Virus record (IMG/VR): IMGVR_UViG_3300034069_000595
Span: 27,478 to 91,477 of that record
Length of the DNA: 64,000 nt
From: a virus
Reading direction: 5' to 3' (one strand)
Position 1 is the stretch's first letter. The number at the start of each line of letters is the position of its first letter. Below are positions 19,952 through 25,911 of this stretch, piece after piece. Both the position numbers and the translations under genes were made by a program. The notes beneath the pieces are model-generated. The model worked only from the letters and a program-made list of their open reading frames with translations, did no database searches and was not told the origin of the DNA.

Positions 19952-21670
19952 ATGTCCTATTTCTTCAACGGGCGGCTCTACACCACCCCAACGACCATGT
20001 CGAAGGTCGATGACTCTGCGTTGCAGAGCGCAAACCTCGGCGTTGGCAACTTCGCGGCCTTCGTTGGCAGCGCGACTGGCGGAAAGCCTAATACCGAACT
20101 GGCGTTCAGCTCGCCAGCTGAGGCGAAGGCGGTCCTGCGCAGCGGTCCGCTGCTGGATGCGATCACCAAGGCATTTGCGCCGAGCGCCGACACTGGCGGC
20201 CCGACCACCGTTTACGGTGTGCGCGTCAACCCTGCGCTCCAGGCTTCCCTCGTGCTGTCTGACGCAAACAGCAGCCCGTCGATCAACCTGCTGTCCACCG
20301 ACTACGGGCTCTGGACCAATCAGATCAAGATCAAGATCGAAGCTGGCACCGACGTAGGCCTGGCTGTCACCACCCAGTACCAGAGCGATTATTACAGCCA
20401 GGATAACATCGCCCGCGATGCACTCTCGGTGCAGTATGGCGGTGCGGCTGCGACTGCCACCATGTCCGTAACCGGCACCAGCATCGTGCTGCAGGCTCCG
20501 AGCGGTAGCACCGTCGCCACGGTAGATCTGAACGTCTACTCCACCTACTCGCAGGTGGTCGACTACATCAACACCGTGGCTGGCTTCTCCGCCATGATCG
20601 TTGATTCGCAGAACAGCGAGCTGGCGTCGCTGAATGGCTTGGACTTCCTGACCTCTGCGGACGTTAAGACCAACCCGGTCACCGTCACTGCGAACCTGCA
20701 AGCGGTCATCGACTGGTTCAACTCCACTGGCGAAGGCTTCGTCACGGCTGCGCGCGCGGCGGGTGCAGGTGCCATCCCAGCTCAGACCTCGCTCGTTTAT
20801 CTGAGCGGCGGCTCTGACGGTGTTACCAGCACCCCCGAGTGGTCTGCGGCCTTCAACACGCTCCAGTCCATCGACGCGCAGTGGATCTGCCCCGTCAGCA
20901 GCAACGCGGCGATCTGGGCCATGGCCGACTCGCACGTGCAGTTCATGTCTGGCGTAGGTCGCATGGAGCGCCGAGCGATCGTGGGCACGCCTGTCGGCAC
21001 CACTGACGCGGCTGCAATCGCGTTCGCCAAATCGTTGAACAGCGATCGCACCTCGCTCGTGCACCTCGGGTACTACGACTACAACGCAGCTGGGAAGCTG
21101 GTGCTGTTCGCCCCGATGTACATGGCAGCCCTGCTGACCGGCATGTTCTCCGGCGTCAACCCGGGCACCGCGCTGAGCAACAAAACGATCAGCGTCAGCG
21201 GCCTGGAACGCAAGCTGCGCAACCCGACCGACACCGATGCCCTGATCCGCGGCGGCGTGCTCTGCATCGAGGACACCAAAACCGGCTACAAGGTCGTTCA
21301 GTCGATCAGCACCTGGCTCAAGGACAAGAAGTTCAACAAGGTCGAGCAATCCTGCGGCTGGGCAACGGACTACACCGCCCGGATCGTTCGCGAAGCGCTG
21401 GATATCTTGCGCGGCGAGAAGAACAACCAGGTCAACATTGGTCGCGCCGCGAGCATTACCGAAACCGCCCTGAAGGCCCTGTCCGTTTCGGAGCCTGCTG
21501 GTCCAGGTGTGCTGGCCGGTGACAAGGACAACCCTCCGTTCAAGGGCATCACCGTGACCGCAAATGGCGACGTGCTCGCCGTGGCGTTCCAGTGCTCTCC
21601 GGTCATTCCTATCAACTACATCCCTGTGTCGATCTCGCTTCAGATCTTCACCGGCACTGCCTCGGCATAA
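19952..21670 (+). CDS. Contractile tail sheath protein
   Basis: GGKPNT...AK..LRSGPLLDAI resembles the phage K-type sheath; C-terminal sheath domain. Confidence 0.9.
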   Translation: MSYFFNGRLYTTPTTMSKVDDSALQSANLGVGNFAAFVGSATGGKPNTELAFSSPAEAKAVLRSGPLLDAITKAFAPSADTGGPTTVYGVRVNPALQASLVLSDANSSPSINLLSTDYGLWTNQIKIKIEAGTDVGLAVTTQYQSDYYSQDNIARDALSVQYGGAAATATMSVTGTSIVLQAPSGSTVATVDLNVYSTYSQVVDYINTVAGFSAMIVDSQNSELASLNGLDFLTSADVKTNPVTVTANLQAVIDWFNSTGEGFVTAARAAGAGAIPAQTSLVYLSGGSDGVTSTPEWSAAFNTLQSIDAQWICPVSSNAAIWAMADSHVQFMSGVGRMERRAIVGTPVGTTDAAAIAFAKSLNSDRTSLVHLGYYDYNAAGKLVLFAPMYMAALLTGMFSGVNPGTALSNKTISVSGLERKLRNPTDTDALIRGGVLCIEDTKTGYKVVQSISTWLKDKKFNKVEQSCGWATDYTARIVREALDILRGEKNNQVNIGRAASITETALKALSVSEPAGPGVLAGDKDNPPFKGITVTANGDVLAVAFQCSPVIPINYIPVSISLQIFTGTASA

Positions 21671-21683
21671 GGAGGGGTAGACC

Positions 21684-22106
21684 ATGAGACAAAATCGCAA
21701 GGTCAAGAGCGGCAACCGGATCGTCATCACTTACGATGGCTTTCAGGTTGGCCTGATCCAGTCGGTTCGCATGAACGACGACTACTCGCCAGAGCCGGCA
21801 TCGGGCATCGGTGACATCCATGTCGCCGAGTGGGTGCCGACCATGGCGCGTCACAGCCTGACCGTCAGCCGCATGATTCTGGAATCCGACAAGATGCGCG
21901 AGCGTGGCATCATGTCGGAGAACGGCGACGCGGTCCTGGAAGGCCTGGTGTTCGACATCGAGACCTACTCCAAGGACGACGGCACTCTGCTGCGCAAGTA
22001 CGTCGGCTGCTCCTACGCATCCGGCGACCTGGAAGTGTCCAAGCATCAGATCCTGATGGGTTCCGGGCAGTTCAACGCACTGGATGTGAGCGGCGGCGGC
22101 GCTTAA
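21684..22106 (+). CDS. Tail tube protein
   Basis: 140 aa after the sheath; KSGNRIVI...VGLIQS...GIGDIHVAEWV resembles the K-type tube. Confidence 0.85.
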   Translation: MRQNRKVKSGNRIVITYDGFQVGLIQSVRMNDDYSPEPASGIGDIHVAEWVPTMARHSLTVSRMILESDKMRERGIMSENGDAVLEGLVFDIETYSKDDGTLLRKYVGCSYASGDLEVSKHQILMGSGQFNALDVSGGGA

Positions 22107-22126
22107 CCGCCCCGACAGCAACACCG

Positions 22127-22168
22127 GAAAGCCCGCCTCGCGCGGGCTTTCTGTCGTGACGGGACAAT
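22127..22168 (+). promoter_or_regulatory. Terminator (22127-22151) directly followed by late promoter motif (22153-22168)
   Basis: gaaagcccgc-ctcgc-gcgggctttc then GTCGTGAC-GGG-A-CAA-T. Confidence 0.75.
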
Positions 22169-22203: not shown

Positions 22204-22587
22204 ATGACCAACGAGCAACGCGAGCTTCGCGCCCCCTCAACCTCCGACTTCCATCTCGACGTTGAGGGCGTCGGCACCTTCGTTTTCGCTCGGCGCACCA
22301 TGCGCGACGAGCTGCGGATCTCCGCCGAATACTCCCGCCTGACAGAGGGCGTGCTGACCCCGACCCCTTACCTCGACACCGTTGCCGGCTGGATGGCGAC
22401 GCTGAAGGTGCTGACCGTCAAGTGCCCGCACAACTGGGATCCAGAGACCATGGACCCGTTTGATACGGACACCGAGGAGAAAATCCTTAAGGTCTACGGT
22501 GCACTCCGCGTCAAGGAGGGCTCTTTTCGCAAAAAACCGCAAGTGGACAGCCAAGCAGAACGGCCGGGAACTGTCCCAGACGCTTAG
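22204..22587 (+). CDS. Tail assembly chaperone (G-like)
   Basis: Position between the tube and tape measure genes. Confidence 0.75.
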   Translation: MTNEQRELRAPSTSDFHLDVEGVGTFVFARRTMRDELRISAEYSRLTEGVLTPTPYLDTVAGWMATLKVLTVKCPHNWDPETMDPFDTDTEEKILKVYGALRVKEGSFRKKPQVDSQAERPGTVPDA

Positions 22588-22864
22588 CTTTTGGTACCGG
22601 CGAAAGTACAACTTGCCGCCGAATGACCCGGGCTTTTTGGACCTCACGCTCGAAGAAATCGAGACCGAGTATTGGGCAATCCACTACTTCGAGGAAGAAC
22701 CCGGCAAGAGTGAAGAATTCGAGGACGATGATTTCGACATGGATGCGGAGATCGCCGCAATCGAAGCAAGAGCCCTGGAAAAAGAACGCCAACGCGAGGC
22801 TGAGCAAGGCCCGCCGGACCCGGGTGACTGGGAAGACATCGAGAACGAGCAGCCCACGACATGA
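22526..22864 (+). CDS. Frameshift extension of the tail chaperone (GT-like), +1 frame
   Basis: Conserved-looking FWYRRKYNLPPNDP segment with no nearby start codon; overlaps the chaperone 3' end. Confidence 0.6.
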   Translation, partial: FAKNRKWTAKQNGRELSQTLSFWYRRKYNLPPNDPGFLDLTLEEIETEYWAIHYFEEEPGKSEEFEDDDFDMDAEIAAIEARALEKERQREAEQGPPDPGDWEDIENEQPTT

Positions 22865-25800
22865 CCGGCATCAAAATCCCCGTAAGCGCCGAGCTGAACC
22901 AGCAGGACATCCAGGCCCAGATCAAGCAGCTTGAGACCGCCCTGAATGACCTTGGCACAGTGGCCCAGAACGCAGGCAAGGTTCGGTTCTCGCCTATCAC
23001 GAAGACCACCGTCGACGACGTGAAGCGCATTCGGGCTGAGTTTGATGCCATGGTGCGCATGGCGCCTGGCCTGAAGCGTGCGCTTGAAGCGGGCGGGCAG
23101 GGCGGCAAAAAGTTCGACACCGTTGACTGGGGCAAGGTCTGGAGCGATCCGAACCAACGCGCTGGGCATGCGGCAACGATGCTGAAGCGCTTCAAGCCTG
23201 GCTCCGCTGAGATCCTTGTTCCGCCGGCTGAGAAGGTGCCTCCAACAACGCCTCCCACGCCTACGCCTTCTGGTGGGGGCGGTAGTCGTCGCCGCCGCCG
23301 TCGCCCGGCAAGCGAGGAGGGTGAAGACGATACCCCTCCAAGCGCTGGCGGTCGGTGGAAGCGGGCGGCCGCTGGCGGTATCGCCGGCATTGCAGGCGGC
23401 GTTGCCAGCCAGCTCGGCGGCGTTGCAGGCGGCGTTGCCACTGGCGCACTCTCAGGCGGCCTTGCGGGCGGCCCTATCGGCGCTGCGGTCGGCGGCCTTG
23501 CTGGTGCCATCACCAGCCTGCTGGGCTCCATTGGCGAGGCTCGGGACATCGCCATCAGCCTCGACACACTCAAGCGCACGCTCGGCGATACGAACGTGTC
23601 GTTCAGCAAGCTTCAGGACAACACGCATCGCCTGGCGGATGAGTTCAGCCTGACGGACGCTGAGGCCATTGGCCTGACCAAAAACTATTCCAACCTGTCG
23701 GGCCACGACAAGGATCTGCCCGGCCTGCGCGATGAGGTCGGCGTTGGTGTGGGCTTCTCCCGCTCGTTCGGTCTGGACCCTTCAGCCGGCGTCGGCTTCT
23801 TCGGGCAGATGCGCGGCATGGGCATCACCGGCAGCGCGGACGACAACAAGAAGCTCGCCCTGCTGATCGGCGAGAGCGTGGCTAAGGCCGGTGACCTGCC
23901 ACGGCTCGGTGACGTGCTGGCGGGTCTCACCCGCTATATGGAGGGCGCTGCACGGACCAGCCTGACCGCGCCGAACTCGGCTGCCTGGCTGTCGCGGTTC
24001 GCGGGCCTGGAGAAATCCGGCCTGGCGGGCATGGACCCCACCACGGCATCCAGCATCATCGGCAGCATCGACGGTTCGATCCGGCAGGGCGGCCTAAGCG
24101 AAGCCGGCAAGAACTTCATGTCCGGCGCCCTGCAAAAGGATCAGGGCCTGAACCCGATCCAGGCAGCCATCCAGCTGGAGGGCGGCGCGTTCGGCTCCGG
24201 TCGATCGACGTTCGGTCCTAACTCCCCGATGTCGCGCTTCTACTCCCGTTTCGGCGGTGGTTCGCCTCTCAGCTCGTGGTCGTCCGACGAGAGCAACGTC
24301 AGCGTGCTCCAGCGGAACCTGACCAAGCAGTACGGCAACAAGTCGCCTGACCTGATGCTGGATGCCTTCAAAAACACGTTCGGAACCAGCTACGGGCAGT
24401 CCGCTGCGTGGCTGGCGACCGACCCTGAGCAGAACGACAGCATGCTCAAGCGCATGCAGCGCCTGGGCCTGAACTGGAAGGACGTGAACGCCTCCGGTGT
24501 GTCGAAGCTCAGCCAGATCGAATCCGATGGCAGCCTGAGCGACGAGCAGAAGGACCAGATGGTCCGTGAGACCGCGTCCAAAAACCAGGAGGACACCATC
24601 GGCTCCGAGGCGCGCCGGGCATCCATTGACGGCAGCAACGCCATGGTGCGCCTGGCAGCTGAGGGCCTGCCGATGCTCAGCTCTATCCAGGCTGGCGTGC
24701 TGAAGCTTGCCGGTCTGGACCCAATGGGCCCGCAGAAGGCGAAGCTGAAGGAGGAGCACGAAGCAAACCTCCAGGCGATCGCAGCCGACCAGGGCGCGGT
24801 CCGTGACAAGGCTGTCGAGGCCTATAAGGCGATCACGCCATGGGCGAAGCGGGCAACCGGTCTCGGTCTGACCGAGGAGCAAGCCAAGGCCAAGGAGGCT
24901 GCCGATATCGCGGGCGGCAACCTGCGCACTGCCGAGCGGGCGGAGAACGACCGCTACGATACAGCCGTATCGGATCTCGACAAGAAAACCGGCCCTGCAC
25001 GCAGCCCGACGCCAGGCACCTCAACCAAGCCCCCGGAAGCTGCGCGCCAGATGGATAAGCAGCAGCAAAAGCTGCTGGCTGAAAACGACGCCAAGCATCA
25101 GACCGCCCTGAGCAAAATCAAGAGCGAACAGGGCGTTGCTATGGCGGAGGCGGTCCGCGACGCCTACAAGATCATGACCCCGGAGCAGCTTAAATCTGGC
25201 GGGCCGGATCTGTCCGATGACCAGCTGTTCGCAAAGGATCGGTTTGACGCGGCGAAGGACGACTACGACTCCGCGATCGCCGAGGCGAACGGCAGCTGGT
25301 CGTCCAAGCGCGAACAGCTGACAGCGCCGCCGTCTCCTGGAACGTCCAGCCAGCCAGTGGCGTCCGGCCTGCCTGGCAAGGCGAGTGGCGTAACCCCGGA
25401 ACTGCTCGCACGGGCGGCAGAGTCCGATCGCAAGGCCGGTCTACCCGAGGGCACGACTGCTGGGCTGATGATGCAGGAGAGTTCGTTCAACTCCGGCGCC
25501 GTCAGCAGCGCCGGAGCCCGCGGGCTGCACCAGCTCATGCCGGCGAACGTGAACACGTTCTCCCAGCGCGTTGGCCGCCGTCTCGACCCGACCAACACCG
25601 ATGATTCGTTCTACATGTACGACGAGCTGATGAAGGAGCGGAAGTCCAAGTACGGCGGCAACACCGACAAGATGCTGAAAAGCTACCACGGTGGCTATGA
25701 CGAGGATCAGTGGGGCCCGGTCAATGCCGACTACGTTCCGGCGATCGAGCGCCGCAAACGTGAGATGGCAGCAGCAGGCCAGACCGTGCAGCAAATGCAG

Positions 25801-25911
25801 CACAGCGTTGCGGTCGATGTCACCATGCGCGATCAATCCGGTAACCGCATCGAAGATGCGCAAATCAATACAACTGTCGGCAAGCCTGTCGCCAGTGGAG
25901 TACCCCAATGA
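22861..25911 (+). CDS. Tape measure protein with C-terminal lytic transglycosylase (SLT) domain
   Basis: 1016 aa, Ala/Gly-rich; MMQESSFN...GARGLHQLMP and SYHGG SLT motifs. Confidence 0.88.
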   Translation: MTGIKIPVSAELNQQDIQAQIKQLETALNDLGTVAQNAGKVRFSPITKTTVDDVKRIRAEFDAMVRMAPGLKRALEAGGQGGKKFDTVDWGKVWSDPNQRAGHAATMLKRFKPGSAEILVPPAEKVPPTTPPTPTPSGGGGSRRRRRRPASEEGEDDTPPSAGGRWKRAAAGGIAGIAGGVASQLGGVAGGVATGALSGGLAGGPIGAAVGGLAGAITSLLGSIGEARDIAISLDTLKRTLGDTNVSFSKLQDNTHRLADEFSLTDAEAIGLTKNYSNLSGHDKDLPGLRDEVGVGVGFSRSFGLDPSAGVGFFGQMRGMGITGSADDNKKLALLIGESVAKAGDLPRLGDVLAGLTRYMEGAARTSLTAPNSAAWLSRFAGLEKSGLAGMDPTTASSIIGSIDGSIRQGGLSEAGKNFMSGALQKDQGLNPIQAAIQLEGGAFGSGRSTFGPNSPMSRFYSRFGGGSPLSSWSSDESNVSVLQRNLTKQYGNKSPDLMLDAFKNTFGTSYGQSAAWLATDPEQNDSMLKRMQRLGLNWKDVNASGVSKLSQIESDGSLSDEQKDQMVRETASKNQEDTIGSEARRASIDGSNAMVRLAAEGLPMLSSIQAGVLKLAGLDPMGPQKAKLKEEHEANLQAIAADQGAVRDKAVEAYKAITPWAKRATGLGLTEEQAKAKEAADIAGGNLRTAERAENDRYDTAVSDLDKKTGPARSPTPGTSTKPPEAARQMDKQQQKLLAENDAKHQTALSKIKSEQGVAMAEAVRDAYKIMTPEQLKSGGPDLSDDQLFAKDRFDAAKDDYDSAIAEANGSWSSKREQLTAPPSPGTSSQPVASGLPGKASGVTPELLARAAESDRKAGLPEGTTAGLMMQESSFNSGAVSSAGARGLHQLMPANVNTFSQRVGRRLDPTNTDDSFYMYDELMKERKSKYGGNTDKMLKSYHGGYDEDQWGPVNADYVPAIERRKREMAAAGQTVQQMQHSVAVDVTMRDQSGNRIEDAQINTTVGKPVASGVPQ

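What the first reader, a model, noticed from the sequence alone, without database searches (positions are those of the whole stretch)
22511..22864. Candidate +1 programmed frameshift (TCT TTT CGC) with internal SD in the tail chaperone
The downstream conserved-looking segment (LSFWYRRKYNLPPNDP) is in the +1 frame and has no usable start. The -1 frame after the AAA AAA run is non-protein-like. Phe-tRNA slipping UUU to UUC at 22525-28 gives ...EGSF-AKNRKWTAKQNGRELSQ. The site resembles the UCC-UUU-CG +1 signal of influenza PA-X, and AAGGAGG (22513-19) lies 5 nt upstream, as internal SDs do in bacterial recoding. Most tailed phages use -1 here and Mu uses -2, so a -2 slip on GC AAA AAA C is the alternative.
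Basis: partly seen in the sequence, partly recalled or inferred. Interest (0 to 1): 0.65.

Follow-up and report, generated by a model that had tools for sequence, protein, structure and literature searches.

The report
Phage tail chaperone +1 frameshift site
This phage most likely makes the long form of its tail-assembly helper protein by letting a few ribosomes slip one base forward at a fixed UUU-CGC spot; the trick is real and deeply conserved, but it is already annotated in related Bacillus phages such as SPO1.

Summary
Between the tail tube gene and the tape-measure gene lies a 127-codon chaperone ORF (22204-22587). A conserved 112-codon extension follows in the +1 frame (22526-22864) and has no conserved start.

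In 57 distinct related loci (66 fetched) the in-frame tetranucleotide TTT_C is invariant. The next codon is CGC, CGA or CGT in 56 and CAG in one. Other conserved Phe codons in the same genes vary freely between TTT and TTC.

Stop codons in relatives confine the shift to codons -4 to +10 around this site. Amino-acid conservation crosses from frame 0 to frame +1 exactly there. None of 79 database homologs is fused. The A6 run is not conserved, which argues against the -2 alternative.

The AAGGAG element six bases upstream shows excess synonymous conservation. It is absent from the Gram-positive relatives, and its spacing differs from prfB, so its role is unproven.

The same TTT_CGN site occurs in the homologous chaperones of nine Bacillus-type myoviruses (Herelleviridae), including SPO1, and of Morganella phage Mecenats66. 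The +1 frameshift is already annotated in SPO1, Shanette and Adastra.

This is an unannotated new member of a known kind. The open papers I could search do not name this motif in phages.

The parts
19952..21670 (+). tail sheath gene (context)
   Evidence: phrog_279 tail sheath, E 1.8e-65
21684..22106 (+). tail tube gene (context)
   Evidence: phrog_985, E 1.6e-36; annotated as tail tube or major tail protein in relatives
22204..22587 (+). tail assembly chaperone, short form (127 aa, frame 0)
   Evidence: phrog_25000 tail assembly chaperone. AF2 pLDDT 86; the last helix, 88-108, ends at F108 and the tail 109-127 is disordered. Best structural match is the HK97 chaperone 2OB9, Z 4.8, rmsd 4.0 over 84 residues.
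22513..22519 (+). Shine-Dalgarno-like AAGGAGG, 5 nt upstream of the UUU codon
   Evidence: Sequence. In 57 relatives the -3 codon is GAG in 46 of 52 Glu (background 49% GAG) and the -4 codon is AAG in 35 of 37 Lys (background 68%). Absent in Herelleviridae. Its role is inferred.
22522..22524 (+). UCU, the codon 5' of the shift codon (E site at the shift)
   Evidence: UCY in 35 of 57 relatives, otherwise variable
22525..22528 (+). shift tetranucleotide UUU_C (tRNA-Phe re-pairs from UUU to UUC)
   Evidence: TTTC in 57 of 57 distinct loci plus 10 distant phages. Other conserved Phe columns are 25-57% TTT.
22528..22530 (+). frame-0 A-site codon CGC
   Evidence: CGC 31, CGA 22, CGT 3, CAG 1, CGG 0 among 57 loci. 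Background: CGA 8%, CGG 24% of Arg codons.
22526..22864 (+). +1-frame extension (112 codons plus TGA), the C-terminal domain of the long form
   Evidence: Conserved over its whole length in relatives. AF2 pLDDT 81, helical. Its stop overlaps the tape-measure ATG as ATGA.
22531..22536 (+). A6 run, not part of the conserved signal
   Evidence: Among GenBank relatives seen only here and in Touem01
22861..25911 (+). tape measure protein with C-terminal SLT lytic transglycosylase domain (context)
   Evidence: Pfam SLT PF01464, E 5e-13; phrog_669

Best explanation
The gene at 22204-22587 encodes the tail assembly chaperone of a 93.6-kb myovirus related to Pseudomonas phage Touem01 and Bordetella phage PHB04. 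Most ribosomes read it in frame 0 and make a 127-aa protein: a folded domain ending at F108 plus a short disordered tail. A minority, with peptidyl-tRNA-Phe on UUU (22525-22527) in the P site and CGC in the empty A site, slip one base forward. The GAA anticodon then pairs with UUC (22526-22528), a full Watson-Crick match in place of a G-U wobble. Decoding continues with GCA in the +1 frame to the TGA at 22862-22864. The result is a 219-aa long form with the junction ...EGSF-AKNRK..., whose extra helical domain presumably does what the T part of lambda gpGT does. The AAGGAGG 5 nt upstream may pair with 16S rRNA and raise the shift frequency. No 3' RNA structure is involved. Shown here: the frames, the invariance of the site, the narrow window, the lack of fused or independently started forms, and homology to annotated +1 chaperones. 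Inferred: the P-site slippage mechanism, the low efficiency, the SD contribution and the function of the extension.
For: The gene sits between the tube and tape-measure genes. ORF1 and the +1 frame each match phrog_25000. The +1 fusion matches it contiguously (residues 17-192 to profile 32-193, E 1.8e-10). Every one of the 68 related loci examined keeps the downstream domain in the +1 frame: 66 have TTT_C at the junction and the pair L064/L065 shifts a few codons further down. In 57 distinct loci TTTC is invariant and the next codon is CGC, CGA or CGT in 56, while other conserved Phe columns mix TTT and TTC. Stops confine the shift to codons -4 to +10. Residue conservation is high in frame 0 up to R(+1) and then switches to frame +1. 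All 79 homologs among 5.8 billion proteins are 120-145 aa, none fused. The last helix of ORF1 ends at F108 and the frame-0 tail is disordered, whereas the +1 peptide folds confidently. The same TTT_CGN site occurs in Mecenats66 and in nine Herelleviridae. Among these, the SPO1, Shanette and Adastra records carry a two-part (joined) long-form CDS, which SPO1 and Adastra label as a +1 frameshift. [quoted passage not shown] UUU_CGN is the +1 site of influenza PA-X and amalgaviruses, at about 1-2% efficiency (PMC5052127, PMC3498833).
Against: No protein or ribosome-profiling data exist for this phage, so the junction peptide is unverified. CGC is the commonest Arg codon here (91 of 157), so a slow A-site codon cannot be claimed for this genome. 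The SD-like element is 5-6 nt from the shift codon, not 3 nt as in prfB (PMC12421855), and also encodes the conserved Lys-Glu. In-frame TTT_C occurs elsewhere in ORF1 of some relatives, so the tetranucleotide alone does not define the site. The invariance of TTTC could partly reflect Phe being needed in both frames, although that does not explain the invariant CG.
Confidence: 0.85

Rival explanations
1. -2 slippage of tRNA-Lys on the A6 run (22531-22536), as proposed for phage Mu, giving ...SFRKKNRK...
For: AAA AAA allows perfect re-pairing two bases back, and -2 reaches the same frame. Mu uses -2 (PMC5009743).
Against: Among the GenBank relatives the run occurs only in this phage and Touem01. 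Dolphis, PHB04, ST4, ECML-606-1 and the IMG/VR loci I inspected have no run there yet keep the same frame relation.
Confidence: 0.03
2. The downstream segment is a separate gene with its own non-canonical initiation, for example the TTG at 22460 or an internal TTG.
For: A TTG opens the +1 ORF at 22460. GenBank relatives annotate small downstream ORFs.
Against: Touem01 and many other relatives have a +1-frame stop only 5-14 codons upstream of the site, downstream of where this TTG would align. The annotated small ORFs start after the most conserved block, FWYRR.Y.LP.NDP. No conserved start or SD precedes that block. phrog_25000 spans both parts as one protein.
Confidence: 0.05
3. Transcriptional slippage (one base deleted or two added in the mRNA) at the T4 or A6 run makes the fused message.
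For: Homopolymer runs are adjacent.
Against: Relatives have only T3 at the site (for example ACA TTT CGC) and no A run. Runs this short are not known to support polymerase slippage (my own knowledge).
Confidence: 0.02
4. The +1 shift happens at this site but without P-site re-pairing: the incoming GNN aminoacyl-tRNA binds out of frame, as at yeast Ty3.
For: The base after TTTC is G in 56 of 57 loci, so the +1 A-site codon is always GNN, a class I expect to be read by abundant tRNAs.
Against: The strict invariance of U-U-U-C is what re-pairing of tRNA-Phe requires. An occlusion mechanism would not need TTT rather than TTC.
Confidence: 0.05

Closest known systems
SPO1 gp10.2/gp11.1 and other Herelleviridae tail assembly chaperones (Shanette gp103/104, Adastra 083/084, Moonbeam)
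   Same: Homologous protein family (phrog_25000). Same gene order: sheath, tube, chaperone, tape measure with lysin domain. Same +1 frame relation and the same in-frame TTT_CG(T/C/A) at the end of the N-domain. The extension ends in the same acidic D/E-W-E-E motif. The +1 shift is annotated in GenBank and called 'unusual' for Moonbeam (PMC4299906).
   Different: Only about 30% identity. Gram-negative hosts and a 93-kb rather than 130-160-kb genome. An SD-like AAGGAG lies 6 nt upstream here but not in Herelleviridae. None of the nine GenBank relatives of this clade annotates the shift.
Influenza A PA-X (UCC_UUU_CGU) and amalgavirus UUU_CGN +1 frameshift sites
   Same: The same minimal cassette: UCU_UUU_CGC here, UCC_UUU_CGN in 15 relatives, and UCC_UUU_CGU exactly in SPO1. 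No 3' structure. Expected low efficiency (PMC3498833, PMC5052127).
   Different: Bacterial ribosomes and tRNAs. CGG is never used here, whereas all four CGN occur in amalgaviruses. CGN is not rare in this GC-rich phage. The resemblance is one of mechanism, not of descent.
Lambda G/GT and the conserved chaperone frameshift (Xu, Hendrix and Duda 2004)
   Same: Position between the tail tube and tape-measure genes. Two N-terminally identical products from overlapping frames. [quoted passage not shown]
   Different: Lambda shifts -1 on a heptanucleotide; this one shifts +1 on a tetranucleotide. No sequence similarity was detected.
E. coli prfB (RF2) +1 frameshift
   Same: P-site pyrimidine-run slippage with an upstream SD-like purine tract (PMC12421855).
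   Different: prfB has a stop codon in the A site, 3-nt SD spacing and autoregulation. Here the A site holds a sense codon (CGC) and the spacing is 5-6 nt.
Pakpunavirus and Andersonviridae chaperone frameshift
   Same: About 90-kb Gram-negative myoviruses with an unannotated chaperone frameshift detected by comparative genomics (PMC12846349).
   Different: Those use -1 on an invariant GTTTTT motif.

Membership tests
G/GT-type tail assembly chaperone with programmed frameshift | Gene lies between the tail tube (major tail) gene and the tape-measure gene | tested here: met
   Sheath 19952-21670, tube 21684-22106, chaperone 22204-22864, tape measure 22861-25911
G/GT-type tail assembly chaperone with programmed frameshift | Two overlapping frames; the downstream part lacks its own conserved start and is conserved in relatives | tested here: met
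G/GT-type tail assembly chaperone with programmed frameshift | Both short and long products are made in a fixed ratio | not testable with these tools
   Needs western blot or mass spectrometry of infected cells
G/GT-type tail assembly chaperone with programmed frameshift | N-domain fold like solved chaperones (HK97, PDB 2OB9) | tested here: inconclusive
   2OB9 is the top match by Foldseek (E 0.2) and VIA-align (Z 4.8, rmsd 4.0, 84 aligned). It stands above the next unrelated row (Z 2.8) but is weak.
SPO1-type +1 chaperone (phrog_25000) | Sequence match to the family profile across both parts | tested here: met
   The +1 fusion matches phrog_25000, E 1.8e-10, residues 17-192 to profile 32-193
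SPO1-type +1 chaperone (phrog_25000) | Extension in the +1 frame, with in-frame TTT_CGN at the junction | tested here: met
   Window; SPO1, Shanette, Adastra, SP-10, Nachito, LysYB1, EalM-132, LpeD, Xoo-sp15
UUU_CGN +1 frameshift cassette (PA-X / amalgavirus type) | In-frame UUU followed by CGN inside the overlap | tested here: met
   22525-22530; 56 of 57 relatives
UUU_CGN +1 frameshift cassette (PA-X / amalgavirus type) | CGN is a rare, slowly decoded codon in the host | tested here: not met
   CGC is 91 of 157 Arg codons in the neighbouring genes. In relatives the rare CGA is enriched, 39% against 8%.
UUU_CGN +1 frameshift cassette (PA-X / amalgavirus type) | Junction peptide shows Phe followed by the +1-frame residue | not testable with these tools
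   Needs mass spectrometry
prfB-type SD-stimulated +1 frameshift | SD-like tract 3 nt upstream of the shift codon, and a stop codon in the A site | tested here: not met
   Spacing is 5 nt here and 6 nt in most relatives; the A site holds CGC (PMC12421855)
Mu-type -2 chaperone frameshift | Conserved homopolymeric slippery run that allows re-pairing at -2 | tested here: not met
   The A6 run is not conserved

The most novel reading that the evidence does not exclude
UUU_CGH may be a minimal +1 frameshift cassette that works on bacterial as well as eukaryotic ribosomes. It would have been kept in one phage chaperone lineage since before that lineage split between Gram-positive and Gram-negative hosts. 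Its A-site requirement may be specific to codons read by the inosine tRNA-Arg(ICG): CGG occurs in 0 of 67 sites, against 24% of background Arg codons in the 57 proteobacterial-clade loci. That would point to a decoding property of this tRNA or codon class rather than to codon rarity.
Probability: 0.3. Interest if true: 0.65.

Novelty: new member of a known kind. Interest (0 to 1): 0.45.

Why it matters
For annotation, the long chaperone form is missing from all nine GenBank relatives of this clade. It is also missing from several Herelleviridae records, and in two of them the extension is labelled 'RNA polymerase'. A simple rule would fix these: an in-frame TTT_CGH at the end of the N-domain, followed by a +1 join.

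For recoding biology, the site offers a natural, phylogenetically replicated test bed in bacteria for the UUU_CGN +1 motif, known so far from influenza PA-X and amalgaviruses. It comes with built-in variation: CGC, CGA or CGT at the A site; one CAG; an SD-like tract present or absent; and one lineage that moved the site. It is readily testable with reporters in E. coli, Pseudomonas and Bacillus.

Tried and rejected
- Pfam gave no family for either part of the chaperone.
- A downstream stimulatory RNA structure was sought and not found. The 90 nt after the site fold no better than shuffles (z -0.36), and RNAalifold on 22 diverse sequences predicts no pairs.
- No tRNA genes lie in the window, so a phage tRNA cannot be invoked.
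The two parts were folded separately instead.
- Scans of metagenome and genome contigs with the N-domain alignment failed for lack of a conserved stretch. The extension alignment worked on metagenomes.
- The SPO1 genome paper is not held, so I do not know where its authors placed the shift.
- Literature searches for UUU_CGN returned only eukaryotic viruses and genes, and no phage paper. This is not proof that none exists.
- The consensus terminator scan did not flag the hairpin after the tube gene.

Full report
**What is there.** The window comes from a complete 93,589-bp virus record. Around the finding the plus strand carries four genes in order:
- a tail sheath gene (19952-21670; phrog_279, E 1.8e-65);
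- a tail tube gene (21684-22106; phrog_985);
- a 127-codon ORF (22204-22587);
- a 1016-aa tape-measure protein with an SLT lytic transglycosylase domain (22861-25911).

ORF1 ends ...KEGSFRKKPQVDSQAERPGTVPDA*. The +1 frame is open from 22415 to the TGA at 22862-22864, which overlaps the tape-measure ATG. It encodes ...LFAKNRKWTAKQNGRELSQTLSFWYRRKYNLPPNDP.... The third frame is not protein-like. TCT TTT CGC lies at 22522-22530, AAGGAGG at 22513-22519 and A6 at 22531-22536.

**What the gene is.** ORF1 and the +1 frame each match one PHROG, phrog_25000 'tail assembly chaperone', a 230-position profile. ORF1 residues 17-118 match profile 32-128, and the +1 frame from 22535 matches profile 118-193. 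Reading TTTC as a single step gives a 219-aa product. That product matches the profile contiguously, residues 17-192 to profile 32-193, at E 1.8e-10.

An AlphaFold model of ORF1 (43-sequence alignment, pLDDT 86) has its last helix at residues 88-108. The helix ends on F108, the Phe of the TTT codon, and the frame-0 tail 109-127 is disordered. The +1 peptide alone folds as a confident helical domain (pLDDT 81). The best structural match of the N-domain is the HK97 tail assembly chaperone 2OB9: Foldseek E 0.2; VIA-align Z 4.8, rmsd 4.0 over 84 residues. The next unrelated row scores Z 2.8. This match is weak but points the right way.

**Relatives.** The closest GenBank relatives are listed below; none annotates a frameshift.
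- Pseudomonas phages Touem01 (82% nucleotide identity), Dolphis and Jeremy
- Bordetella phage PHB04
- Aeromonas phage ST4
- Escherichia phage ECML-606-1
- Enterobacter phage phiT5282EW
- Yersinia phage fHe-Yen8-01

IMG/VR and metagenome scans added 63 loci (34, 29). The site could be read in 66 loci, 57 of them distinct; I also examined the variant pair L064/L065. In every locus examined the conserved downstream domain lies in the +1 frame relative to ORF1. A search of 5.8 billion proteins over lengths of 120-384 aa found 79 homologs. All are 120-145 aa and none is fused. This rules out a sequencing indel, and no fused form is known.

**Where the frame changes.** Frame-0 stops lie 10 to 42 codons after the TTT. 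The nearest +1-frame stops lie 5 to 76 codons before it. If the site is shared, the change must therefore happen between codons -4 and +10. Within that span only five nucleotides are invariant: T-T-T-C, plus G at 98%.

Codon counts among the 57 distinct loci:

| Position | Counts |
|---|---|
| TTTC tetranucleotide | 57 of 57 |
| Frame-0 A-site codon | CGC 31, CGA 22, CGT 3, CAG 1, CGG 0 |

As an internal control, six other conserved Phe columns in the same genes carry 25-57% TTT. In this phage's own structural genes TTT is only 12 of 93 Phe codons. Background Arg usage in the same genes is 8% CGA and 24% CGG, so CGA is enriched about five-fold and CGG is avoided.

Amino-acid conservation is high in frame 0 up to the Arg (98%) and then collapses. 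Frame +1 conservation starts right after the Phe. The invariant Arg sits in a disordered, otherwise variable tail. Its conservation is therefore better explained by the nucleotides than by the protein.

**Mechanism (inferred).** With peptidyl-tRNA-Phe (anticodon GAA) on UUU in the P site, a one-base forward slip replaces a G-U wobble with a G-C pair on UUC. The next codon read is GCA. Three published points bear on this:
[quoted passage not shown] It also states that tailed phages use -1, -2 or +1 at this gene (PMC5009743).
- UCC_UUU_CGU is the influenza PA-X +1 site (PMC3498833).
- UUU_CGN is the amalgavirus +1 motif, with about 1-2% efficiency measured for the influenza site in reticulocyte lysate (PMC5052127).

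That level is of the same order as the 30:1 product ratio described for lambda G and GT (PMC5009743). No downstream structure is predicted, as is usual for +1 sites.

**The upstream SD-like tract.** AAG GAG occupies the -4 and -3 codons in 31 of 57 loci, and some form of GGAG occurs in about 40.

| Codon position | Use at the site | Background in the same genes |
|---|---|---|
| -3 (Glu) | GAG in 46 of 52 | 49% GAG |
| -4 (Lys) | AAG in 35 of 37 | 68% AAG |

These counts come and argue for selection on the nucleotides. Three points count against a clear role. The tract lies 6 nt from the UUU (5 nt in this phage), not the 3 nt that is nearly universal in prfB (PMC12421855). Several relatives lack it. 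The Gram-positive relatives lack it altogether. I treat it as a probable accessory stimulator of unproven role.

**Rivals.**
- The -2 slip on the A6 run fails because the run is not conserved. Among the GenBank relatives it occurs only here and in Touem01.
- Independent initiation fails for three reasons. The TTG at 22460 is cut off by +1-frame stops in the closest relatives. The small downstream ORFs annotated in GenBank begin after the most conserved block. No start is conserved.
- Transcriptional slippage is unlikely on T3-T4.

**Comparison with what is known.** A low-stringency tblastn reached Morganella phage Mecenats66 and Bacillus phage SP-10. Mecenats66 has TCC CGA TTT CGC and a +1 extension. 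SP-10 has ACC TTT CGA and a +1 extension that ends ...DDDWEEVDD just before its tape-measure gene.

Using the SP-10 chaperone as a query found 38 records, nearly all of Bacillus-group and other Gram-positive-host Herelleviridae. I inspected eight of them besides SP-10: SPO1, Shanette, Adastra, Nachito, LysYB1, EalM-132, LpeD and Xoo-sp15. Each has a single in-frame TTT_CG(T/C/A) near the end of ORF1, followed by a +1 extension. The SPO1 site is TCC TTT CGT, identical to the PA-X cassette.

The shift is already annotated in this group. The SPO1 record annotates gp10.2/gp11.1 as a +1 ribosomal-slippage join. Adastra labels its long form a '+1 frameshift product', and Shanette carries a two-part (joined) long-form CDS. 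The Moonbeam genome announcement calls the +1 shift 'unusual' (PMC4299906). The Shanette join is 230 aa, which explains the length of phrog_25000.

So the kind of event, and its presence in this protein family, are known. Three things are added here. First, the shift extends to an unannotated clade of about 90-kb Gram-negative myoviruses. Second, the shift site is pinned to UUU_CGH by 57+10 independent sequences. Third, the motif is the one used by eukaryotic RNA viruses. I found no phage paper that names this motif, but the SPO1 genome paper is not held, so I cannot claim priority for that point.

**Variants seen.**
- L066 keeps UUU_C but has CAG in the A site.
- L064 and L065 have TTC GAC instead of TTT CGA C. 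A +1-frame stop follows four codons later, and a +1 shift is still needed further downstream. Candidate sites are AAA_A, or GCA_UGA_C preceded by AAGGAG. The frame relation has therefore outlived the original site in that lineage.

**Verdict.** Confidence that the long form is made by a +1 ribosomal shift at 22525-22528 is about 0.85. This is a new member of a known kind, of moderate interest, chiefly as an annotation fix and as a bacterial test bed for the UUU_CGN motif.

Noticed in passing
L064:1100-1260 and L065 (metagenome contigs ERZ724522 NODE-249, ERZ724505 NODE-1124): This lineage lost the TTT_CGN site (it reads TCC TTC GAC) and has a +1-frame stop four codons later, yet still needs a +1 shift. 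Candidate new sites are GTG AAA_AGC, or AAGGAG-AC-GCA-TGA-C, which resembles prfB.
   Followed up: partly
L066:1199-1204: The one locus with UUU_CAG instead of UUU_CGN at the otherwise conserved position. Its +1 A-site codon would be AGG.
   Followed up: partly
window 22530-22537: After the +1 shift the A run reads GCA AAA AAC, a perfect A_AAA_AAC -1 heptamer that could send some ribosomes back to frame 0. In this phage the third frame also stays open for 135 codons after the site (4-96 codons in relatives). This is probably chance in a GC-rich genome.
   Followed up: no
window 22126-22150: A GC-rich hairpin (GCCCGC-CTCG-GCGGGC, followed by TTTCTGTCG) lies between the tube gene and the chaperone. 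It may be a leaky terminator that lowers chaperone and tape-measure transcription relative to sheath and tube. The consensus scan did not flag it.
   Followed up: partly
L078 (Xoo-sp15) 1391-1867; L079 (LpeD) 1292-1762: In these GenBank records the +1 extension of the chaperone is annotated as 'RNA polymerase' or 'RNA polymerase beta subunit'. The Xoo-sp15 chaperone ORF is labelled 'tail tape measure protein'. These are likely mis-annotations. SP-10, Nachito, LysYB1 and EalM-132 also lack the join.
   Followed up: partly
window 22825-22861 and the ends of the extensions in L001-L082: The extension ends in a conserved acidic-aromatic motif (D-D/G-W-E-D/E-hydrophobic) in both the Gram-negative clade and Herelleviridae. 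It is probably the contact for a tail partner.
   Followed up: no
window 22861-22864: The stop of the extension and the start of the tape-measure gene overlap as ATGA. This suggests translational coupling of the tape measure to the rare long-form ribosomes as well as to its own initiation.
   Followed up: no
proteins P0021, P0037, P0044: Chaperone homologs are deposited under bacterial names (Pseudomonas helmanticensis, Paraburkholderia phenoliruptrix, Caballeronia pedi), on contigs of about 49-123 kb. This suggests phages of this clade co-assembled with, or carried by, their hosts.
   Followed up: no
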